Source: Candidatus Saccharimonadales bacterium
GTDB taxonomy: Bacteria; Patescibacteriota; Saccharimonadia; UBA4664; DATIHN01
Assembly: GCA_035480635.1 (NCBI GenBank)
Contig: DATIHN010000016.1
Coordinates: 562 to 64,561, forward strand
Direction: 5' to 3'
DNA length: 64,000 bases
Shown: positions 24,567-33,655 of the stretch, piece after piece
Numbering within the stretch: the stretch's first letter is position 1
Layout: each line of letters begins with the position of its first letter
The notes under the pieces: model-generated
The model's input: only the letters and a program-made list of their open reading frames with translations
What the model was told of the DNA's origin: nothing
The model's database searches: none
Made by a program: the position numbers and the translations under genes

Positions 24567-24860
24567 CTATGCTACGAAATGAAGGCCGAATTGCCAGATG
24601 TAATAACTGGCTAGCATGATGCCTAAGGTAAAGGCTGTTAGCAACCGCAGGCGCCGATCCCACCAATAACTCAGCGCTACGGCGGCTAGCGCCGGTAGGC
24701 CAGCGTAACTATTGGGCGATCCGGTGCCACCTAGGGCGATTTTGGTCGAGACGTTATCGGTCACCGACACCATGAAGACGATAGCTAAAATTAATCCGAC
24801 CAAGGCAGCCAAGCGGCTGCGGTCGAGTTTAATAAGGGTTGGGTTTTTACTTTTGGCCAT
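24567..24860 (-). CDS. Small membrane protein (97 aa).
   Basis: Three hydrophobic segments. Confidence 0.4.
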   Translation of the reverse strand: MAKSKNPTLIKLDRSRLAALVGLILAIVFMVSVTDNVSTKIALGGTGSPNSYAGLPALAAVALSYWWDRRLRLLTAFTLGIMLASYYIWQFGLHFVA

Positions 24861-24944
24861 TTTGAATCCTATTTTTATACTATTATTATAGCATAAGCGG
24901 AATACTTAAACCGATTTTTTTAGCTATTCCTAATAACTGATTCC

Positions 24945-24973
24945 TTGACTTAACAGAGCTATTATGGTAGTCT
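24945..24973 (+). promoter_or_regulatory. Putative promoter: TTGACT, 17 nt spacer, TAGTCT.
   Basis: Consensus -35 hexamer; the -10 fits TAnnnT. It sits ahead of the AGGAGA RBS of the island's first gene. Confidence 0.35.
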
Positions 24974-25009
24974 TGGGCGGTTCAGGACCTCGCCTATTTA
25001 AGGAGAGAC

Positions 25010-25288
25010 GTGAAGCACCGAAAAGGATCATCAAAAATCAAGTACGATCACCATATGATCTCGGGCCTTCGCGACTTTCTCGAAAGCATCGAAGACTGGC
25101 CGGAGATCAAATCGATCATCCCTGGTCGCATCAAACGCACCGGCATACATACAGCCCTGAAGCTCAAGGTCCAATACCCCACCGACACCGGTTTGAAGTG
25201 CCAGGCTCAGTCTGGGGGAGCAATCCAGGAGGTCTTCGTTGTCACATCCGTACCAGACGTGCTTGCTCGTAAGCTCAACAACCTATAG
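25010..25288 (+). CDS. Small hypothetical protein (92 aa), partner of the NYN gene.
   Basis: AGGAGA RBS and GTG start. The stop lies 12 nt before the NYN ORF. Confidence 0.45.
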   Translation: MKHRKGSSKIKYDHHMISGLRDFLESIEDWPEIKSIIPGRIKRTGIHTALKLKVQYPTDTGLKCQAQSGGAIQEVFVVTSVPDVLARKLNNL

Positions 25289-25300
25289 GGGTGAAGCAAC

Positions 25301-25828
25301 GTGGAGATGCCGAAGTTCGCATTAGTTGCCATCGATGGCGATAACATCGACCGCACGCTCTTTGGGGAGCTCAAGAGTCAACTTGCCCCAGGGGTCTTGG
25401 TGGAAGTGATAGCCGAACTGCTCCCCAATCACACCACCTGGAGCCTGGGCTGCTACACGGTTCCGCAAACCGACCGAGCTATGTCTCTCCAGCAGCATTA
25501 TCTGCGCGAGTTGGTGGCAGCCGGTATCGCTATTCGGCGATGGCGGCGGGGAGCCATTCGCGGCCGTACCGTCGGCTACCCCGACAGCTGGCTGGTGGAG
25601 CAGGTGGTGACCATTTGGGATCGATTCGACACGCTGGTATTAGTGACGGCCGACCGGGACTACGTCCCCTTGTTATCTAATGCCCAAGCCATGGGCAAAG
25701 ACACCGTCGTGCTTTCACCTCAACCGGTGGCTTGGCCCAGCTTCGTGCGAGTACATGAACTCGACTGGCTCGACACTCAACACCCAGGTCTTCTACGCTC
25801 ACTTATTGCCGCCCCGGCCTGGATATAA
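25301..25828 (+). CDS. NYN-domain (LabA-like, PIN-related) RNase.
   Basis: ALVAIDGDNIDR and LVLVTADRDYVPLL...GKDTVVL match the NYN acidic motifs. Confidence 0.7.
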   Translation: MEMPKFALVAIDGDNIDRTLFGELKSQLAPGVLVEVIAELLPNHTTWSLGCYTVPQTDRAMSLQQHYLRELVAAGIAIRRWRRGAIRGRTVGYPDSWLVEQVVTIWDRFDTLVLVTADRDYVPLLSNAQAMGKDTVVLSPQPVAWPSFVRVHELDWLDTQHPGLLRSLIAAPAWI

Positions 25829-25829
25829 G

Positions 25830-25870
25830 CCCCCTAGAGTCTATTTGGATTCTAGGGGGTTAACATTTTG
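25830..25870 (+). terminator. Rho-independent terminator.
   Basis: CCCCCTAGA ... TCTAGGGGG 9-bp stem followed by TTAACATTTTG. Confidence 0.6.
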
Positions 25871-25879
25871 ATAAAAGCA

Positions 25880-25908
25880 TTGACGTAGTTCAAAAAAAAT
25901 ACTAGAAT
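25880..25908 (+). promoter_or_regulatory. Strong sigma70 promoter: TTGACG, 17 nt spacer, TAGAAT.
   Basis: Near-consensus hexamers with 17-nt spacing, about 70 nt before the GAGGAGGG RBS and ATG 25980. Confidence 0.6.
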
Positions 25909-25979
25909 AACCTATCTTGCTCAAATTTGGGTAAGAGCTCTTTGATTAGAGCGCTCTACATCCCGAGGAGGGATCTGGT

Positions 25980-26726
25980 ATGGCAGGTACAGCAAACTCC
26001 ACCGACCAACCGACGTGGGTAACCATCGACATCGTATGTGTCGGTGACGAGCCCATGCTCTGTAACCCGATGAGTCGCGACCAGCTCGTGGCCATCGCCG
26101 AGAAGCGTCCAGTTGCCTGGCCCGCTGACCGTCCTGTGATCGAGCAGGCCGACGTTAAGGCCGAGCTGATGAGGGACACCGACGGCCACTACGGCTTCCC
26201 GCGGCAGTGGCTGCAGGGGGCCTTGAGGGAAGCTGGTCGCTCAGTACCCACCGGTAAGGCTGCTCGGCAGATGATCAGCACCGCTACCAGCACGCGCTTG
26301 CGCACCCTGGTGCGGATCGATCCAGTCTGCCTGAGCTTCAACGCCGACGGTGAGCGGTTCATCCGCTTCAGCAGTCACTCCGAGTACGAACGCGATGTCC
26401 GCAAGGGCGTCGGGGGTAACGCTGCCAAGCCGGTGGCGGTAGCGATCGTGCGGCCGCTCTTCCGTAACTGGGCCTTCCGCGTCCGCATCCAGGCATCCAC
26501 CAGCATCGACACCTCGCGCATTCGTGAGCTATTCGAGATCGCTGGTGCCAGCCAGGGTTTGGGCGACTTCCGCCCCGGCAAGGGTGGCGAGTTCGGCTGC
26601 TTCCAAGTGGCCTCGTTGGTCAAATACGACGATCCAGCCGAGGTACCGGAGTTCGTACTGGCCACCAACGCCATGACGGCGGCGGACAACGGCCAGGGCA
26701 AGGTTCACGAACTCGCCAGCACTTAG
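25980..26726 (+). CDS. Hypothetical protein (248 aa) with a glycine-rich loop GLGDFRPGKGGEFG.
   Basis: Monocistronic unit with its own promoter and terminator. The G-rich loop is loosely reminiscent of RAMP/Cas6 loops; this is unverified. Confidence 0.6.
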   Translation: MAGTANSTDQPTWVTIDIVCVGDEPMLCNPMSRDQLVAIAEKRPVAWPADRPVIEQADVKAELMRDTDGHYGFPRQWLQGALREAGRSVPTGKAARQMISTATSTRLRTLVRIDPVCLSFNADGERFIRFSSHSEYERDVRKGVGGNAAKPVAVAIVRPLFRNWAFRVRIQASTSIDTSRIRELFEIAGASQGLGDFRPGKGGEFGCFQVASLVKYDDPAEVPEFVLATNAMTAADNGQGKVHELAST

Positions 26727-26743
26727 CCGGCCAACCGACTTGT

Positions 26744-26779
26744 GGGCCGAGGCTTCGTGCCTCGGCCCACTTTCTTTTG
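26744..26779 (+). terminator. Rho-independent terminator.
   Basis: GGGCCGAGGC TTCGT GCCTCGGCCC followed by ACTTTCTTTTG. Confidence 0.65.
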
Positions 26780-26856
26780 CCCTCATACATGTGGCAAAAG
26801 ACAAATTTTGGTCTGCTGAGCCATCTCGTTGTGCATCTTAAGTTCCATTAATTCTG

Positions 26857-27761
26857 GAGGGAGAACTCAAGTTCTCGCAAATAGTCTGGTCGAGTACAGT
26901 GGGGTCGTGTAGGTAAAGGCTTGCAGAACTACGGTACCGGGTAGGGACTGATGTTCCTACCATACCTAATGTTGGGCTAGGCTTGGTTCCGCTGGGTTGG
27001 TCAGCGTTTAGTGTGGTTATCTACCGGGCAGCAGCCGTCATGCTACTGCCAAACCTGCCCTACGGTGTGGTCCGGCCTGCTTCGTTGTGATGCCACCCAG
27101 TTAGGCATGGGGTAGCGGTCGCCAGACCGCTACTATAACTCCGGTAGGGTCCGCCATTGCAGTGTCGCCCACGCAGTTGTATGGCCCGCATGACTAGGGT
27201 TTGGTGGACTTTGGGGCGGCAGCCGACAGGTTGCCGCCATTACCTTATGTAAGGTTTACTGGGTTAGGGTTCGGCTCCATAGGCCTAGCTATTCTGCTGC
27301 TCGGGGCGGGAGAACCAAGATTCTCCCGCCAACCCTATTGTTTGGTACTGCCAGCTCACGTAAAGCATAGCTGCGTAGTCTAAGGCAAGGGGCAGCAGCT
27401 CCGGCTGCTGCCATCAGTCACGGTGACGTTCCGTGGATTAGGCTTTTGCCAGCCATGGCGTTGTCATGCTTGGTACGGGGTGGGAACCACAAAGCTCCCA
27501 CCATGGTTAGTCCACTGTGTGGTTGAGCCTGGTTTGTCGTCGTCGAGCTTGGCACACTTAGGGGCGAGACCGCTTGAACGGTCTCGCTGACACTTGTGGT
27601 AAGGTTGAGATCCCTACAGTAGAGTGCTATCGGCTTAGCTACGGGGTAGTGGCTCCGGCCGCTGCCGACATTGTGGTCGACTAGCGTAGAGTTGATTACT
27701 CTGTTGTGTGTCTCGTTTGAGTTTCCTAAGGGGTGGGGAGGGACTAAAATCCTTCCCCACC
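26857..27761 (+). repeat. Array 1: 11 tandem units of about 85 bp, each starting with a GGGG-initiated GC-rich stem-loop. Sequences diverge but structure is conserved.
   Basis: Hairpin starts at 26857, 26939, 27026, 27109, 27214, 27303, 27389, 27477, 27561, 27643 and 27730, with 82-105 bp spacing. Stems co-vary, with plus-strand G-U wobbles and one C-A mismatch in unit 3. There is no ORF. Confidence 0.7.
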
Positions 27762-27870
27762 AACAACTTTCATCGTTCTTATGGTGCTATCGTTTCACAT
27801 ACGATGCCACCTCGGCCTGATGACAGTCCGGACACCTTGACACTCGAATAGATAGAAAGGAGGGAACCGC

Positions 27871-29694
27871 ATGAGCGATTACAGTGACGCCTTGTCGCAA
27901 GAGAACCTCATGACCTGCTTCCCCCGTCAGTACCGTCGCCCCAACAACTCTCAACTGTCTGCCTTTGCCGCCATCGCCGAACACGGTAGTGAAACACTCG
28001 AGGCACCGACTGGCACCGGCAAGACCGCCGTTGGCTGGTCCTACCTCGAGGCCTTGGAACGAGCTGGCGCTACCTCACTAGTGGCTATTGCTCCCAACAA
28101 GACTCACGTAAACCAGTGGAAAGAGCTCCACCCCGATATGACGGTCGCCTATGGCCGCAGTGAGTACGACTGCCTTTACTACGACGAGGAGGACGAACCC
28201 TTTAAGGCCGACGAGATTCCTTGTTTGACCTTAACCAATTGTCCCCACCGCGTTGACGTAGAGACTGGCCAGACCGTGGAAGAGGGCGCTATGCCATGCC
28301 CCTACTACCAGGCCAAGTTCGAGGCCAGACGCTCGCGCAAACTGGTTTGCACCATGAGCTTCTACCTCTTCAATAACGTCTTTCGTGGGGACTTTGAGCC
28401 CCCCGATGGGCTGGTGATTGACGAGGCCGACCAGATTGCCAAAGTCGTTCGCGGCGCGCTCAGCTACGAAATCACCGACTTCCAACTGCGGCGCAGTGTG
28501 ATGTTGCTGGAGAGCATCGGGGCCGACGACGAGGCCAAATCGGTCAAGCAATTCCTGCGCAATATGGTCGCTATCCTGAAGCGCAAGCCCCAGGGGCAGC
28601 CAACCTTGCTAACGGACGGCGAGATTGTTCGCCTGCTGGATGCGATTGGTCAAATTGACGCCGAGGCTGTTCGGAAGCGTATTGCACGTGCCATCAAGAC
28701 TGGCGAAATCGATCCTTACGAGGACCGAGAGGTGCTAACCAGGCTAGAGCGGCTGACCCAAAACCTGGGGCGCTATTTGCGCTCTCTGGGGTATGCTCTG
28801 CCGACCGGTGAATACCACGCCCTCAACTTGGTGACCTACGCCTACAGCGACAACGAGGTAACCGACGAGAACCGGGTCAACTATAAGCTCATCATCAAGA
28901 GCTACCACGTAGCCGGTCTAGTGCGCAAGCTGCTCAGCCCAAACACCCTGGCCATGTCGGCGACCATTGGCGACAACACCGTCTTTGGCTACGAAACCGG
29001 CATTCAACTGCCATTCGTGAGCCTGCCGGGTACGTTCCCAGCAGAAAACGCCCTGGTACTGCTGCCTACAGATACGCCCAACTTGGCTCAGAAGGAGCGC
29101 AGCCGTAACCAACCCACCAGAGTGCTACGCCACATTGCCAGAGCCTGTGGCGACTTTGCCAAAAAGGATATCCGCAGCCTAGTGATTGTGGTTAGTAACC
29201 GCGAACGCGACAAGTTCCTTTGGCTCTGCCAAGAAGCTGAGGAAGATGTCGACGTAGTCAGCTACGGCGATGGCCTGACCCCCCGTCAGGCTCTGGCGGC
29301 CTTCAGGGAAGGTCAAGGGACGGTGCTCTTGGGCACGGTGGCCAACTACGGCTCGGGCGTTGACTTGCCAGAGGAGATTGCTCCAGTCACGTTTGTGCTA
29401 CGACCGGGCTACCCCAACCCCAACGACCCGTTCGCTCAGTTCGAGCGGCGACGCTTTGGCAACGGCTCTTACTGGAAGGTCTGGAACTGGCGAGTGATGA
29501 TTGAAGCTCTGCAGGTGCGCGGGCGCAATATCCGCAGTGCCAGTGATCGTGGTGCCACCATCTTCATCTCGCAACAGTTCCGGCGTTTCCTGTTTGCATC
29601 ACTGCCGGAATGGCTCAAGGACAGTTACGACGGCAGCCTGACATTCGAGGAGGCCTGCGGGCGCGTTCTCGAGCTGATGGAAGCTCAGTCGTAA
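27871..29694 (+). CDS. Rad3/XPD/DinG-family SF2 helicase with an Fe-S cluster domain (607 aa).
   Basis: APTGTGKT Walker A, a four-Cys cluster, VIDEAD box, SAT motif, and QVRGRNIRSASDRG motif VI. AAAGGAGGG RBS upstream. Confidence 0.8.
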   Translation: MSDYSDALSQENLMTCFPRQYRRPNNSQLSAFAAIAEHGSETLEAPTGTGKTAVGWSYLEALERAGATSLVAIAPNKTHVNQWKELHPDMTVAYGRSEYDCLYYDEEDEPFKADEIPCLTLTNCPHRVDVETGQTVEEGAMPCPYYQAKFEARRSRKLVCTMSFYLFNNVFRGDFEPPDGLVIDEADQIAKVVRGALSYEITDFQLRRSVMLLESIGADDEAKSVKQFLRNMVAILKRKPQGQPTLLTDGEIVRLLDAIGQIDAEAVRKRIARAIKTGEIDPYEDREVLTRLERLTQNLGRYLRSLGYALPTGEYHALNLVTYAYSDNEVTDENRVNYKLIIKSYHVAGLVRKLLSPNTLAMSATIGDNTVFGYETGIQLPFVSLPGTFPAENALVLLPTDTPNLAQKERSRNQPTRVLRHIARACGDFAKKDIRSLVIVVSNRERDKFLWLCQEAEEDVDVVSYGDGLTPRQALAAFREGQGTVLLGTVANYGSGVDLPEEIAPVTFVLRPGYPNPNDPFAQFERRRFGNGSYWKVWNWRVMIEALQVRGRNIRSASDRGATIFISQQFRRFLFASLPEWLKDSYDGSLTFEEACGRVLELMEAQS

Positions 29695-29757
29695 GGAACA
29701 CATTTACGGTAGAGCCAGGCTAGATACGTTAGTGCAGCGCGAAGCAGGCTAAGTTGT

Positions 29758-30790
29758 CGGTGGAGAGGCCGAGCTATGGGCCTCTCCACAAACTATCTGG
29801 TTCGGTAACGCGGGCTCAACTTTTGTGCCGTCATCTACTGATTGGTGCGGGGCAGCGACTTTGGTCGCTGCCAATCATTAGCTTCGGCTAGGTCAGGCTT
29901 TGCGCGCTGCTATAGGGCGGAGTTTGGTCCTGGTGGGGAGGCGAAACAGTTGGCCTCTCCACAAAACTTTCGTTAAGGTGTGGTATGGTTTGCCAGTTTT
30001 CGGTCTGCCACATCTTGGGTGGAGAAGCCAAACAGCTTCTCCATGAAAATCAGTGGTAGGGTAGCACGAGCCGTTGGACTCAGCCTTATTCTTGGGTATC
30101 GGGTGGAGTACCCAACTCCACCAAAAATTTGCTTAGCTATGCTAAGGTTATCCCCGGTGGCCTACGGTCTGGGACGGAGGCATTAGTGTCTTCGTCAAAC
30201 CTTAGGTATGGTGACCCCCTCTCCGTTGACGTATGCCAAGGCCACGTAGCTTGCGTTTCTGTTGAGCAGCGAATTGGGCGGAAGCAGAAATGCTTCCGCC
30301 ACTATTTCCGTCAGCTCGGGTTGGCTATGATGTCGTTGCGTTGATCTGGGAACGGTCTACTAGACTACGGGGCGGGGTTGTGTAACCCCGTTAAAAATTA
30401 CGGTCTGTTCAGGCTAGGCGAGCCATGCTGACTTTAGACACGGCCGGCTTCGGGGTGGGAGTGACGATGCTTCCACCAGAAATATCGTCAAGTCGAGAGA
30501 TGCACAGTGCTGTTGTTTTGCGTGAAGTACGGCTCGATAGGGTAAAGGGTGGCCGAGCAATCGGCCACTATGACTTGGGTTCGCTACTCTGTAGTAATGT
30601 CGCTTTCAGCATCGCATAGTATTGGGTGGCTGGCTTGCTAGCCACCAGCCCTACGCTAGGATTCAGTCCGGCTTTGTGGGCCTCGGTAGCTCACGGCATT
30701 CCACAGCCCGCTCGAGTCCGTTGCATTGTTCAATGGTTCAGTTGGGTAAGCGGCGGGGAGGCAGTTAAACTGCTTCCCCGCCTTTTCAAT
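29758..30790 (+). repeat. Array 2: about 11 tandem units of the same GGGG-hairpin family. The last hairpin doubles as a terminator.
   Basis: Hairpins at 29761, 29851, 29933, 30020, 30102, 30277, 30373, 30452, 30547, 30624 and 30752. G-U wobbles are plus-strand only. Hairpin K is followed by TTTTC. Confidence 0.65.
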
Positions 30791-30870
30791 TAATAAGCCA
30801 ATTTCGTTATTGGTCTGGGACTTTTCGATAACTTTAAGTTAAGATATAATTTAAGCCGTTTTGCAAGCAA

Positions 30871-30944
30871 GGCACCATGGCGGAGTGGTTACGCAGAGGT
30901 CTGCAAAACCTTTTACACCGGTTCGATTCCGGTTGGTGCCTCCA
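30871..30944 (+). tRNA. tRNA-Cys (GCA).
   Basis: Cloverleaf with anticodon loop CTGCAAA, T-loop GGTTCGATTCC, and an encoded CCA. Confidence 0.85.
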
Positions 30945-31076
30945 GGAATTTGGTACAGACATTTGTCTGTGCTGGATTCCTACGAAGCCGGAAGCGAAAG
31001 CGTAGGTTCGGTGGACGTAGGCGCGCAGGCAAGGGACAATAAATTGGTTCTTGCCGAGCACCGAGGGAGGTGGCTG

Positions 31077-31095
31077 CCAAGCCACATTCCGGTTG
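31077..31095 (+). repeat. 19-nt duplicate of the tRNA-Cys 3' end (ATTCCGGTTGGTGCCTCCA).
   Basis: Exact copy of 30926..30944, 133 bp downstream. It resembles an att-site footprint. Confidence 0.7.
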
Positions 31096-31105
31096 GTGCC
31101 TCCAA

Positions 31106-32380: not shown

Positions 32381-32725
32381 ATGCCAAAATTTATGGTGCT
32401 TTATAACTCATCAGCCAAAGCCAACGAGCTAATGGCCAACGCCAGCCCAGAAGAAATGAAGGCCTCTATGAACGAGTGGATACAGTGGCGTGACGATTTA
32501 CCCGAGGATGTTAAGTTCGATTTTGGACTGCCATTGCAAGCCGTCAGTCGAGTTACTACGTCTGGTTTAACCACTAGCGATAGTCCGGTCAACGGCTACG
32601 CCACAATTGAGGGCGAATCGAAAGAAGCAGTACTGGATTTGCTCAAAAACCACCCGCATTTGAAAAGGCCCGATGCCACCATTGATGTGCTCGAAATGCT
32701 ATCGATGCCTGGGCTTGAAGCTTAG
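32381..32725 (+). CDS. YciI-like domain protein.
   Basis: MPKFMVLYN ... profile, about 114 aa. AAGGAGA RBS upstream. Confidence 0.55.
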   Translation: MPKFMVLYNSSAKANELMANASPEEMKASMNEWIQWRDDLPEDVKFDFGLPLQAVSRVTTSGLTTSDSPVNGYATIEGESKEAVLDLLKNHPHLKRPDATIDVLEMLSMPGLEA

Positions 32726-33115
32726 CTAGTCAAACTTAGTAGTACAAAAGGCGCAGCGGGTGGCCATAGCTGGGATTTCGCTCAAGCATTCTGGGCACTT
32801 TTTGGCCACTTCCCCACCTTTGGAAAATTTTTGAGTCAAATGGTTAACGGGTTTGACCACGAAAAAGAAGACTACGCTGGCAACAATTAGGAAGCTAATT
32901 AGAGAATTTAAGAAAATACCATAGTGGATGCTGCTCTTGTGGATGGTCAGCGCTAGGTTTTGAAAGTTTGGCCCTGATCCAATGGCACCGATTAGGGGCG
33001 TTAGAACTTCGCTCACGAATGAGCTGACGAGTACCCCAAAGGCGGCACCAACCACCACACCAACGGCTAGATCAACAACGTTACCTCTGAGTAAAAATTG
33101 GCGAAATTCTTTCAT
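32726..33115 (-). CDS. mscL: Large-conductance mechanosensitive channel.
   Basis: MKEFRQFLLRGNVVDLAVGVVVGAAFG is the MscL signature. Confidence 0.9.
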   Translation of the reverse strand: MKEFRQFLLRGNVVDLAVGVVVGAAFGVLVSSFVSEVLTPLIGAIGSGPNFQNLALTIHKSSIHYGIFLNSLISFLIVASVVFFFVVKPVNHLTQKFSKGGEVAKKCPECLSEIPAMATRCAFCTTKFD

Positions 33116-33156
33116 TACAAGCCTCTTTTACAAGCGTATCTTAGCATAAATATGGC

Positions 33157-33233
33157 TGGTGGGCGGTGAGGGGCTCGAACCCCCGACCTCCTCGGTGTAA
33201 ACGAGGCGCTCTAGCCAACTGAGCTAACCGCCC
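33157..33233 (-). tRNA. tRNA-Val (TAC).
   Basis: The reverse complement folds as GGGCGGTTAGCTCAGTTGGCTAGAGC ... TTTACAC ... GGTTCGAGCCCC ... CCA. Confidence 0.8.
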
Positions 33234-33295
33234 GAACCGTGTAATTTTAATAACTTTTTGAAATTTTGGCAAGTATATAGCTAGTCTTTTTGTGT

Positions 33296-33324
33296 TTGAC
33301 AAATAAACTAAAGTATGATAATAT
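33296..33324 (+). promoter_or_regulatory. Consensus sigma70 promoter: TTGACA, 17 nt spacer, TAATAT.
   Basis: Perfect -35 and a near-perfect -10, about 50 nt upstream of GGAG and ATG 33377. Confidence 0.6.
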
Positions 33325-33376
33325 TTAAACGTTCTCTCGAAGTAACTTCTTACCCTCGATTCGAATGGAGTAAACC

Positions 33377-33655
33377 ATGGCCGCAGACTGTTGCGGTGGC
33401 GAATACGACCTATTCCTGGGATTCACACACAAGCCCGGCTGCCCCTCCAGGCAAGTCGGTGCCGCCCGCCAGGCAGCCGAACGAGACATGGAAGCCGGTC
33501 GCCGGAGCTCTCAAGGCGTCCACGGCGGTTCCTCCACCAGCCCCAGCTACCAGCTCGGGCGAAAGAAGGAGCAGGATCGCCAAGTCAAGCACATCGTCGA
33601 CGAAGTCTTCGGCTTCCCCATCGGCGGGCGCAGACGACGCGGACCACTGCTCTGA
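33377..33655 (+). CDS. Small GC-rich hypothetical protein (92 aa).
   Basis: GGAG RBS 7 nt before the ATG, and a strong promoter. The region has about 63% GC by eye and all three plus-strand frames are open, so frame choice is uncertain. Confidence 0.35.
   Translation: MAADCCGGEYDLFLGFTHKPGCPSRQVGAARQAAERDMEAGRRSSQGVHGGSSTSPSYQLGRKKEQDRQVKHIVDEVFGFPIGGRRRRGPLL

What the first reader, a model, noticed from the sequence alone, without database searches (positions are those of the whole stretch)
29758..30790. Array 2 downstream of the helicase, same hairpin family, ending in a terminator
Hairpins are at 29761, 29851, 29933, 30020, 30102, 30277, 30373, 30452, 30547, 30624 and 30752. A and C are paralogous (TGGAGAGGCC..GGCCTCTCCACAAAC versus GTGGGGAGGC..GGCCTCTCCACAAAAC); D, E, H and J share the GGTGG..CCACC skeleton followed by an A-rich tail. 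G-U wobbles are again plus-strand only. The last hairpin, GGCGGGGAGGCAG-TTAAA-CTGCTTCCCCGCC followed by TTTTC, is an intrinsic terminator. The whole region from array 1 through the helicase to array 2 could therefore be one transcript ending about 80 bp before tRNA-Cys.
Basis: seen in the sequence. Interest (0 to 1): 0.8.

Follow-up and report, generated by a model that had tools for sequence, protein, structure and literature searches.

The report
VIPR guide-RNA array beside its helicase
The "hairpin array" is a string of twelve small guide RNAs (vrRNAs) of a VIPR system, a CRISPR-like RNA-guided DNA-recognition system first described in 2026 preprints, here found with a helicase in the chromosome of an uncultured Saccharimonadales bacterium.

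Summary
The hairpins are real, regularly spaced and far more frequent than chance, but they are only the 3' caps of the units. The 50-105 nt between hairpins is made of pentanucleotide repeats, YNNGG, kept in register with each hairpin: position 1 is a pyrimidine in 88% of pentamers, positions 2-3 are about uniform, and positions 4-5 are G in 49% and 58%.

That is the signature of vrRNAs of VIPR systems (bioRxiv 10.64898/2026.04.26.720920 and .720927).

- **Vipr protein:** the 248-aa gene upstream (25980-26726) has a RAMP/Cas7 fold. Its family profile hits the solved SUSP1 Vipr protein (E 1.9e-11), and the GGY-binding residues are conserved.
- **Accessory gene:** the helicase (27871-29694) is an XPD/DinG-type accessory gene. 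A Vipr gene sits directly upstream of a helicase homologue in 21 of the 23 distinct loci that reach upstream of the helicase, and the noncoding stretches beside them carry YNNGG tracts and hairpin tails on the same strand.
- **Content:** array 2 holds 12 vrRNAs and array 1 holds 10, each 74-136 nt, and all guides differ.
- **Targets:** none found.

Verdict: a new member of a known, very recently described kind. The helicase's role and the targets remain inferred.

The parts
25880..25908 (+). sigma-70-like promoter candidate upstream of vipr (TTGACG-17-TAGAAT)
   Evidence: Consensus scan, 10 of 12 matches. This is a consensus match only.
25980..26726 (+). vipr gene: 248-aa single-domain RAMP (Vipr family)
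26742..26770 (+). terminator-like hairpin after vipr (12 bp stem, then TTTCTTTT)
   Evidence: Conserved with L001 at 81% over 57 nt.
26881..27761 (+). Array 1: 10 vrRNAs. Unit ends (tail ends) at 26961, 27050, 27134, 27238, 27330, 27412, 27502, 27588, 27666 and 27761.
   Evidence: Pentamer register, phase statistics, tail covariance-model hits, unit lengths 78-104 nt.
27871..29694 (+). vap: 607-aa XPD/DinG-family SF2 helicase (Walker A GTGKT, DEAH, four invariant Cys)
   Evidence: PADLOC typeIV_DinG 2.4e-39 over the full length. Pfam Helicase_C_2, DEAD_2. phrog_2488. PDB sequence hits are XPD/Rad3. Invariant C101, C118, C124 and C143. A Vipr gene lies directly upstream on the same strand in 21 of the 23 distinct loci that reach upstream of the helicase.
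29700..29789 (+). vrRNA 2-1: 12 pentamers, tail 29760-29789
29790..29872 (+). vrRNA 2-2: 12 pentamers, tail 29851-29872
29873..29962 (+). vrRNA 2-3: 12 pentamers, tail 29933-29962
29963..30044 (+). vrRNA 2-4: 11 pentamers, tail 30019-30044
   Evidence: Pentamers and length. Hairpin. This tail was not returned by the model search, even though it was in the model's seed alignment.
30045..30122 (+). vrRNA 2-5: 11 pentamers (the most degenerate guide), tail 30102-30122
30197..30300 (+). vrRNA 2-7: 16 pentamers, tail 30277-30300
30301..30392 (+). vrRNA 2-8: 14 pentamers, tail 30371-30392
30393..30477 (+). vrRNA 2-9: 12 pentamers, tail 30454-30477
30478..30569 (+). vrRNA 2-10: 14 pentamers, tail 30548-30569
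30570..30646 (+). vrRNA 2-11: 11 pentamers, tail 30625-30646
30647..30782 (+). vrRNA 2-12: 21 pentamers, tail 30752-30782 followed by TTTTC (tail and probable intrinsic terminator)
24964..25828 (+). DUF2103-like (24964-25272) and NYN-domain (25301-25828) genes upstream. Membership is doubtful; they are probably neighbours only.
   Evidence: NYN Pfam 1.3e-7. Both are conserved only in the two closest loci, L001 and L009, and are absent from the other vipr-helicase loci.

Best explanation
Region 29700-30782 is an array of twelve vrRNA genes of a VIPR (Viral Interference Programmable Repeat) system. Array 1 (26881-27761) holds ten more.

**What each unit is.** A unit of about 85 nt encodes one guide RNA. 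It has 10-21 tandem pentamers of consensus YNNGG, followed by a G+C-rich hairpin tail whose stem base is GGYRR/YYRCC.

**How it is expected to work.** This is inferred from experiments on the SUSP1 and P. fulva systems in the two preprints.
1. One Vipr protomer (gene 25980-26726) binds each pentamer.
2. The protomers sequester the GGY bases and present the two variable NN bases.
3. The filament reads double-stranded DNA by a gapped code, NNxNNx..., with one base skipped per repeat.
4. [quoted passage not shown]

**The helicase.** The adjacent XPD/DinG-type helicase (27871-29694) is the system's accessory (vap) protein. I infer that it is recruited to the guide-bound target and unwinds or strips DNA from it. 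That would turn binding into interference or long-range silencing, much as CasDinG does for type IV-A CRISPR.

**Shown here:** the sequence anatomy, the protein homology, the conserved gene order, and the conservation of tails and repeat tracts in related loci.

**Inferred, not shown:** transcription, processing into units of about 85 nt, Vipr binding, DNA targeting, the helicase's role, and the identity of the targets (presumably phages or other mobile elements of Saccharimonadales).
For: **(1) Pentamer code.**
- Over 282 pentamers in 22 units read back from each hairpin, position 1 is Y in 88% (G in 1%).
- Positions 2-3 are about uniform.
- Position 4 is G in 49% and position 5 in 58%.
- Phase information is 1.308 bits, against a shuffle mean of 0.031 and maximum of 0.088 in 1000 shuffles.
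- Inter-hairpin lengths are multiples of 5, or that plus 1, in 20 of 22 units.
- All 16 dinucleotides occur at the NN positions, and no two guides resemble each other.

**(2) Specificity.**
- All 11 strong YNNGG tracts on the + strand of the 64-kb window lie in the two arrays.
- In the model search, every window hit at E < 0.05 lies in the two arrays on the + strand. These are 21 of the 22 tails that seeded the model; the 30019 tail was not returned.

**(3) Vipr.**
- The fold is RAMP.
- The family profile hits the solved SUSP1 Vipr at E 1.9e-11.
- The thumb Arg and the G-loop D-aromatic-R motif are conserved (with for residue roles).
- The family has 4452 representatives at E <= 1e-3.

**(4) Conserved architecture.**
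- A Vipr gene lies directly upstream of the helicase homologue in 21 of the 23 distinct loci that reach upstream of the helicase: the window, L002, L009, L010, L016, L017, and 15 of 18 metagenome loci. L023 and L024 show the same coordinates and scores.
- Wherever YNNGG tracts and tail hits occur, in the noncoding stretches beside vipr and the helicase, they are on the + strand. Not every locus has both.
- About 35 independent tail hits at E < 0.01 were found in the first set of loci. Across 91 aligned hits, 99.3% of cells are paired and there are 198 double-sided changes.

**(5) Match to the published definition.**
- vrRNAs are defined as 9-16 YNNGG repeats plus a structured 3' tail, under about 100 nt, arranged in arrays flanking vipr and a vap gene.
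- Types III-V carry nucleases or helicases (10.64898/2026.04.26.720920).

**(6) Strand.** G-U pairs and folding energy favour the + strand.
Against: - The GG positions are only about 50-58% G, so many pentamers are degenerate (mean score about 2 of 3 per pentamer). Some guides may be decayed or may follow a relaxed consensus. The preprint itself notes frequent internal degeneracy and alternative consensus forms.
- The tails are simple hairpins whose sequence differs from unit to unit. The characterised SUSP1 clade has an invariable tail of about 40 nt with a pseudoknot.
- No natural target was found. In the window the best NN match is about 68% under every skip rule. Nothing turned up among the fetched loci. 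Eight exact scans of IMG/VR gave one hit, which looks like chance.
- There are no expression data.
- Assignment to a numbered VIPR type rests on elimination from one sentence of the preprint. Its figures and tables were not available to me.
Confidence: 0.88

Rival explanations
1. A degenerate or atypical CRISPR array. The hairpins are diverged palindromic repeats, the stretches of about 60 nt are spacers taken from foreign DNA, and the effector is a type IV-like Cas7 plus DinG.
For: RAMP protein plus a DinG-like helicase whose best profile hit is PADLOC typeIV_DinG at 2.4e-39. Regular alternation of a hairpin with variable sequence.
Against: - The 'spacers' carry a strict 5-nt YNNGG phase. Spacers captured from foreign DNA would not.
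- No two 'repeats' are more than 79% identical, and TRF finds nothing.
- None of the four ORFs scanned at the locus matched a cas1, cas2, cas5, cas6 or cas8 model; the only Cas-family matches are helicase models hit by the helicase itself.
- The helicase keeps four invariant Cys. CasDinG has only a vestigial FeS domain (PMC10450177).
Confidence: 0.03
2. A long structured noncoding RNA or UTR that works through its hairpins, for example as protein-binding sites, RNA stabilisers or attenuators for the helicase mRNA. The units would not act as individual guides.
For: Strong excess folding on the + strand (z = -8.65). No strong terminator between array 1, the helicase and array 2.
Against: - It does not explain the phased YNNGG repeats with free NN positions.
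- It does not explain the obligatory Vipr partner that is homologous to a protein solved in complex with such repeats.
- Inter-hairpin sequence is not conserved between loci whose helicases are 73-79% identical. That fits variable guides better than a conserved fold.
- No Rfam family matches.
Confidence: 0.05
3. A decaying relic of a VIPR system. The locus was acquired horizontally, and its arrays are drifting and no longer functional.
For: Degenerate GG positions. No targets found. G+C of the locus is 0.56-0.65 against about 0.50 in the flanks.
Against: - Both ORFs are intact, with catalytic and RNA-binding residues conserved.
- The pentamer register and hairpin pairing are maintained in all 22 units through many compensatory changes. 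That indicates ongoing selection.
- The same degree of degeneracy is seen in independent loci.
Confidence: 0.04

Closest known systems
VIPR systems (Vipr + vrRNA + vap), bioRxiv 10.64898/2026.04.26.720920 and 10.64898/2026.04.26.720927. The characterised examples are type II systems from Escherichia phage SUSP1 and a Pseudomonas fulva prophage.
   Same: - A small single-RRM RAMP protein homologous to SUSP1 Vipr, with the GGY-binding residues conserved.
- Guides built from tandem YNNGG pentamers with free NN positions, each followed by a structured 3' tail.
- Guide length of about 75-105 nt.
- Guide genes arranged in arrays on both sides of the protein genes.
- One accessory gene next to vipr.
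- No CRISPR repeats and no adaptation genes.
   Different: - The accessory gene is a 607-aa XPD/DinG-type helicase, not the DNA-binding vap1.
- There are 22 guides in two arrays. SUSP1 has 4.
- Tails are plain hairpins of 7-14 bp that keep only the GGYRR/YYRCC stem base and vary from unit to unit. The SUSP1 clade has an invariable pseudoknotted tail.
- The GG positions are more degenerate.
- The locus lies in the chromosome of a Saccharimonadales (Patescibacteria) MAG among housekeeping genes, not in a phage.
- Targets are unknown.
Helicase-associated VIPR type. [quoted passage not shown]
   Same: Vipr plus a helicase vap plus vrRNAs with a pentamer code.
   Different: I could not see the preprint's Fig. 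5A, Fig. S17 or data S4. Whether this clade is their type IV, and what they report for its tails and arrays, is therefore unverified. No experiment on a helicase type is described in the text I could read.
Type IV-A CRISPR-Cas (Csf complex + CasDinG)
   Same: A Cas7-like filament on a guide RNA, paired with a DinG-family 5'-3' helicase and no nuclease. The likely outcome is interference without cleavage. PADLOC's typeIV_DinG is the best-scoring profile for the helicase.
   Different: - No CRISPR repeats and no Csf1, Csf3 or Csf5.
- The guide uses a gapped pentamer code, not a contiguous spacer.
- The helicase retains four invariant Cys typical of the XPD/DinG Fe-S domain. CasDinG's Fe-S domain is vestigial (PMC10450177).
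- PDB sequence hits are to XPD/Rad3, not CasDinG.
REP/BIME-type extragenic palindrome clusters and intrinsic terminators
   Same: G+C-rich hairpins clustered in intergenic DNA. The last one is followed by a T run.
   Different: All hairpins point the same way at a period of about 85 nt. Each is in register with a pentamer tract, and they are found only next to vipr and the helicase. Only the last hairpin has a T tail.

Membership tests
VIPR system | Vipr protein: a small RAMP with one RRM core, a G-loop and a thumb, homologous to characterised Vipr | tested here: met
VIPR system | vrRNA guide: tandem YNNGG pentamers (at least 4, typically 9-16) with conserved GGY and hypervariable NN | tested here: met
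   There are 10-21 pentamers per unit. Position 1 is Y in 88%, positions 4 and 5 are G in 49% and 58%, and the NN positions are about uniform. Phase information is 1.308 bits against at most 0.088 in 1000 shuffles. The GG positions are more degenerate than the ideal consensus.
VIPR system | A structured 3' tail capping each repeat tract | tested here: met
   A hairpin follows the last pentamer in all 22 units, and 98.9% of cells are paired with strong covariation. The model finds the same element in independent loci. It differs from the SUSP1 clade: it is not sequence-invariant, and no pseudoknot was detected.
VIPR system | A minimal locus: vipr plus one accessory (vap) gene, flanked by long noncoding stretches and without CRISPR arrays | tested here: met
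   The order is vipr, array 1, helicase, array 2. No CRISPR-type repeats. A Vipr gene sits directly upstream of a helicase homologue in 21 of the 23 distinct loci that reach upstream of the helicase.
VIPR system | vrRNAs are expressed as RNAs of about 100 nt and co-purify with Vipr | not testable with these tools
   No transcriptome data are available. Only strand asymmetry of folding and of G-U pairs supports a + strand RNA.
VIPR system | Guides match natural DNA targets under the 1-nt skip (NNx) rule at 80% or more of NN positions | tested here: inconclusive
   No self-target in the window: about 68% for every skip rule. Nothing among the fetched loci. Eight exact scans of IMG/VR with 10-pentamer patterns gave 7 empty results and one hit of 22/26. 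In that hit only 2 of the 6 extra NN positions match, and the skip base falls on codon position 1. The preprint's nhmmer search, which tolerates mismatches, could not be run on a large database.
CRISPR array (any type) | Near-identical direct repeats of 23-50 bp separated by unique spacers that have no internal periodicity | tested here: not met
   The best pair of 'repeats' is 79% identical, and TRF finds nothing. The 'spacers' are phased pentamer repeats.
Type IV-A CRISPR-Cas | Csf1 (Cas8-like), Csf2 (Cas7), Csf3 (Cas5), Csf5 (Cas6) and CasDinG with a vestigial Fe-S domain | tested here: not met
   Only one RAMP gene is present, and PADLOC finds no other Cas protein. The helicase has four invariant Cys. 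Its PDB sequence hits are XPD/Rad3.
Intrinsic (Rho-independent) terminator, last hairpin only | A G+C-rich stem-loop followed directly by a U-rich tract | tested here: inconclusive
   The stem is 14 bp with 10 G-C pairs, followed by TTTTCAATTA. It is the top terminator-like site in 24800-31000, but the scan's total count does not exceed shuffles (8 found against 5.7 +/- 2.7). The T run is only four long. Terminator rules for Patescibacteria are not established.

The most novel reading that the evidence does not exclude
The helicase-type VIPR seen here may be a host-domesticated, chromosomal RNA-guided system of Patescibacteria in which a Vipr filament recruits an Fe-S XPD/DinG helicase. That would make it a functional and possibly evolutionary counterpart of type IV-A CRISPR (Cas7 filament plus CasDinG), and so a link between VIPR and CRISPR effector modules. 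Its tails would be recognised by shape and by a 5-bp stem base only, which would allow 22 or more non-recombining guides per locus. A further unexcluded possibility is that some guides act on the epibiont's actinobacterial host or on its phages rather than on phages of the Saccharimonadales cell itself.
Probability: 0.15. Interest if true: 0.8.

Novelty: new member of a known kind. Interest (0 to 1): 0.45.

Why it matters
VIPR was described only in 2026, and experiments so far cover phage-borne type II systems with a DNA-binding accessory protein. This locus adds several things.

- **A helicase-type example.** It is a clean chromosomal case with 22 distinct guides. Relatives occur in two other Saccharibacteria genomes, and the helicase family is named mostly from Patescibacteria. 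A Vipr gene lies directly upstream of the helicase in 21 of the 23 distinct loci that reach that far.
- **A simple, searchable tail.** The tail motif is a hairpin with stem base GGYRR/YYRCC. Together with the pentamer phase it locates guides that tandem-repeat and CRISPR finders miss.
- **A test case for the helicase.** It can be used to ask what a helicase adds to gapped RNA-guided DNA recognition.
- **A parallel with type IV-A CRISPR.** The Cas7-like filament plus DinG-family helicase pairing can be examined against the proposal that VIPR predates CRISPR.

For genome annotation, it shows that such 1-kb 'gene-free' hairpin-rich stretches next to small unannotated proteins should be read as guide arrays.

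Tried and rejected
- **Rfam.** The scan of the whole window found only tRNAs, so no known ribozyme or ncRNA family applies, including hammerhead-interspersed arrays.
- **CRISPR reading.** This was my first hypothesis after the PADLOC typeIV_DinG hit and the RAMP fold. I rejected it on the pentamer periodicity and the absence of near-identical repeats.
- **DNA-level alignment of arrays.** Aligning arrays between the window and loci with 73-79% identical helicases (L007, L009) found nothing alignable except the last tail of array 1 and one 38-nt match.
- **Strain comparison.** Other assemblies of the same population (L012-L015) are 100% identical, so guide turnover could not be examined.
- **NYN and DUF2103 as processing factors.** These upstream genes are conserved only in the two closest loci, so they are probably just neighbours.
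- **Mycobacteriophage context.** The Vipr homologue in Brocalys has no helicase beside it.
- **Target searches.** Searches of the window, of all fetched loci, and 8 exact NNx scans of IMG/VR gave no convincing target.
- **Literature searches.** The first searches, using 'Cas7-like / DinG / Patescibacteria' and 'hairpin array', found nothing relevant. The link came from the PDB sequence search.
- **Failed scans.** A metagenome scan with alignment A2 failed for lack of a conserved stretch. The scan with the single helicase found no relative.
- **A looser G.T versus A.C count.** Allowing stems to extend into the loops gave only 42 against 26. Restricting the count to the outer 8 bp gave 15 G-U against 2 non-standard pairs.
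Full report
**Observation**

Region 29758-30790 lies between the stop codon of a 607-aa helicase gene (27871-29694) and tRNA-Cys (30871). A hairpin scan finds + strand stem-loops at 29760, 29851, 29933, 30019, 30102, 30173, 30277, 30371, 30454, 30548, 30625 and 30752. They are spaced 71-127 nt apart, mostly 82-94.

Array 2 holds 10 strong hairpins in 1.1 kb. Shuffles give a mean of 1.4 and a maximum of 4, and the rest of the window has about 2 per kb. A second, matching array lies between the upstream 248-aa ORF and the helicase, with hairpins at 26940-27732.

The + strand of array 2 folds at -424.7 kcal/mol (z = -8.65). The - strand folds at -336.9 kcal/mol (z = -4.0). Rfam finds only tRNAs in the window.

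**The proteins**

The helicase matches Pfam Helicase_C_2 and DEAD_2. Its best profile hit is PADLOC's typeIV_DinG, at 2.4e-39 over the full length. It also matches phrog_2488. Sequence hits in the PDB are XPD/Rad3 helicases.

An alignment with eight homologues shows the Walker A and DEAH motifs and four invariant cysteines (C101, C118, C124, C143). These are the hallmark of the XPD/DinG Fe-S domain. In CRISPR-associated CasDinG that domain is vestigial (PMC10450177 abstract).

A word-index search found only four relatives, and it names the source as a Candidatus Saccharimonadales MAG. A full profile search found 4452 cluster representatives at E <= 1e-3.

**The key link**

A profile of 47 family members hits one PDB sequence, 36pp_D 'SUSP1 Vipr protein', at E 1.9e-11. 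That led to two 2026 preprints.

- VIPR systems consist of a small ancestral RAMP, Vipr, and vrRNAs.
- A vrRNA has 9-16 tandem YNNGG pentamers followed by a structured 3' tail.
- One Vipr protomer binds each repeat, sequesters GGY and presents NN.
- The NN dinucleotides read double-stranded DNA with one base skipped per repeat.
- Loci are minimal: vipr plus one vap gene, flanked by noncoding guide genes.
- Seven types exist, and types III-V carry nucleases or helicases.

**Testing that definition here**

I read each inter-hairpin stretch backwards from the hairpin in steps of five. Every unit then resolves into pentamers of the form yNNGG. Over 282 pentamers in 22 units:

| Pentamer position | Composition |
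|---|---|
| 1 | T 65%, C 23%, G 1% |
| 2-3 | about uniform |
| 4 | G 49% |
| 5 | G 58% |

- Phase information is 1.308 bits, against at most 0.088 in 1000 shuffles.
- Inter-hairpin lengths are multiples of five, or that plus one, in 20 of 22 units.
- All 16 dinucleotides occur at the NN positions, the guides are unrelated to one another, and unit lengths are 74-104 nt plus one of 136 nt.
- All 11 strong YNNGG tracts on the + strand of the 64-kb window fall inside the two arrays.
- In Vipr, the residues that hold GGY in SUSP1 (R138, D177, W178, R179, H17) align with R158, D196, F197, R198 and N29. The first four are conserved in the family.

**The tails**

The 22 hairpins align with an outer 8-bp helix that is 98.9% paired. 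It has 51 double-sided changes against 13.9 +/- 3.5 in shuffles, and 15 G-U pairs against 2 non-standard pairs. This set was chosen by a hairpin finder, so I also built a covariance model from the window tails alone and searched independent loci.

- The model returns about 35 hits at E < 0.01 in L001, L002, L007, L009, L016 and L017. All are on the gene strand and in the noncoding stretches next to vipr and the helicase.
- In the rest of the window it returns nothing better than E 0.1. The window hits at E < 0.05 are 21 of the 22 seed tails; the 30019 tail was not returned.
- It returns 42 more hits at E <= 0.05 in 18 metagenome loci.
- Across 91 aligned hits, 99.3% of cells pair. The stem base reads GGYRR/YYRCC, and the inner stem varies freely.
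- Pentamers upstream of these independent tails show the same phase: Y 85%, G 53% and G 50%.

**Conserved architecture**

A Vipr gene sits directly upstream of the helicase homologue, on the same strand, in the window, L002/L003, L009, L010 (hhalign probability 100%), L016, L017, and 15 of 18 metagenome loci. L023 and L024 show the same coordinates and scores, so that is 21 of the 23 distinct loci that reach upstream of the helicase. Of the other three metagenome loci, one begins inside an array (L026) and two have no Vipr within about 5 kb upstream of the helicase (L029, L031).

Array size ranges from one guide on each side (L002) to more than 20 (L009). Arrays are not alignable at the DNA level between loci whose helicases are 73-79% identical. 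That fits rapidly diverging guides.

The DUF2103 and NYN genes upstream of vipr are shared only with the two closest loci. I do not count them as part of the system.

The flanks are housekeeping genes (LemA, M48 peptidase, RibD_C, MscL, an ABC transporter) and tRNAs. The locus is richer in G+C than its surroundings, 0.56-0.65 against about 0.50. This is therefore a chromosomal copy, probably acquired horizontally.

**Not CRISPR**

The best pair of tails is 79% identical, and Tandem Repeats Finder reports nothing. None of the four locus ORFs scanned matched a Cas model other than the helicase's own hits. The 'spacers' are internally periodic. That periodicity is incompatible with captured foreign DNA.

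**Transcription signals**

- A sigma-70-like promoter candidate precedes vipr at 25880-25908.
- A terminator-like hairpin follows vipr at 26742-26770.
- The best terminator-like site in the region is the last hairpin of array 2, 30752-30782 followed by TTTTC.

That last hairpin also fits the tail model (E 0.004) and is in pentamer register. It is therefore the tail of the last guide and may double as the terminator. Whether array 1, the helicase and array 2 form one precursor cannot be decided from sequence.

**Targets**

- Under the published NNx rule, none of the 22 guides has a target in the window. The best match is about 68% under all four skip rules.
- No convincing target exists among the fetched loci.
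- Eight exact scans of IMG/VR with the ten 3'-proximal NN pairs of eight guides gave seven empty results and one hit, L018. There, only 2 of the 6 additional NN positions match, the skip base falls on codon position 1, and no other guide matches the contig. I treat that hit as chance.
- The preprint's search method, which tolerates mismatches, could not be run on large databases here.

**Mechanism**

- *Shown:* the anatomy, the homology and the conservation.
- *Inferred from the preprints' experiments on SUSP1 and P. fulva systems:* each unit is expressed as a vrRNA of about 85 nt. Vipr polymerises on the pentamers with the hairpin capping the 3' end. The NN code directs the filament to double-stranded DNA.
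- *Inferred by analogy with type IV-A CasDinG (PMC10450177) and from conserved gene order:* the XPD/DinG helicase is loaded at the bound target and unwinds or clears DNA. That would give interference or extended silencing without a nuclease.

**Comparison and novelty**

This is a member of the VIPR kind, carrying a helicase accessory gene. By elimination from the preprint's text that is probably their type IV. I could not see the figures, so the assignment is unverified.

Relative to the characterised type II systems, this locus has many more guides (22 against 4). Its tails are plain hairpins that vary in sequence. Its GG positions are more degenerate. It also has an Fe-S helicase partner, a patescibacterial chromosomal setting, and no identified targets.

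I rate it a new member of a known kind, of moderate interest.

Noticed in passing
window 30926-30944 and 31086-31104: The last 19 nt of tRNA-Cys (ATTCCGGTTGGTGCCTCCA) are repeated exactly 160 nt downstream, just before tRNA-Leu. This looks like an att-type scar of an integrative element. Four other assemblies of the same population end their contigs at 30866-30944, which suggests a variable junction at this tRNA.
   Followed up: partly
window 24964-25828; L001 195-1041; L009 993-1782: A DUF2103-like gene and a NYN-domain (PIN-like RNase) gene sit directly upstream of vipr in the window and its two closest relatives, but not in the other vipr-helicase loci. They are probably syntenic neighbours. 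A clade-specific role in RNA processing is not excluded.
   Followed up: partly
L011 4570-5555 (Mycobacterium phage Brocalys, NC_031262.1 about 32502-33487): gp45, annotated as hypothetical, is a Vipr-family homologue. A YNNGG tract of about 240 nt lies immediately upstream of it, next to the immunity repressor and antirepressor genes, with no helicase nearby. The tblastn search matched 27 Mycobacterium, one Gordonia and one Pseudomonas phage records.
   Followed up: partly
window 27871-29694 (protein residues C101, C118, C124, C143): Four cysteines are invariant across nine helicase homologues, between Walker A and DEAH. This suggests an intact 4Fe-4S cluster as in XPD/DinG, unlike the vestigial Fe-S domain of CasDinG, even though PADLOC's typeIV_DinG is the best-scoring profile.
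   Followed up: partly
L005 5511-5882 and L006: A Vipr homologue (36% identity) is followed by one YNNGG tract and then by repeated units. Each unit carries two hairpins, a 7-8 bp stem and a 12-bp stem, at a spacing of about 110-130 nt. This is a different tail architecture. The contig ends before any accessory gene.
   Followed up: no
L010 3507-4348: Downstream of a helicase that is 59% identical, the tails are 13-14 bp hairpins of another consensus (AGCGGAGTGGGAGC...GTTCTCACTCCGCT) at a spacing of about 135 nt. Each is followed by a second small hairpin, AAGATCT..AGATCTT.
   Followed up: no
L029 and L031: These helicase homologues (39-42% identity) have no Vipr ORF within about 5 kb upstream, and no YNNGG tracts or tail hits. 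The helicase family therefore extends beyond VIPR loci.
   Followed up: no
L018 2262-2290 (IMGVR_UViG_3300039106_000391): This is the only exact IMG/VR match to a 10-pentamer NNx pattern (guide 26962-27026). It matches 22 of 26 NN positions overall and lies inside a 324-aa ORF on the minus strand, with the skip base at codon position 1. It is probably chance.
   Followed up: yes
window 26743-26799 versus L001 1988-2046: The terminator-like hairpin after vipr and about 30 nt beyond it (..CATGTGGCAAAAG..) are 81% identical between the two loci, while the arrays themselves are not alignable. This may be a conserved promoter or leader for array 1.
   Followed up: no
window 26000-30000: G+C is 0.56-0.65 across vipr, array 1 and the helicase, against about 0.45-0.54 in the flanking genes. 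This is consistent with horizontal acquisition of the locus.
   Followed up: no
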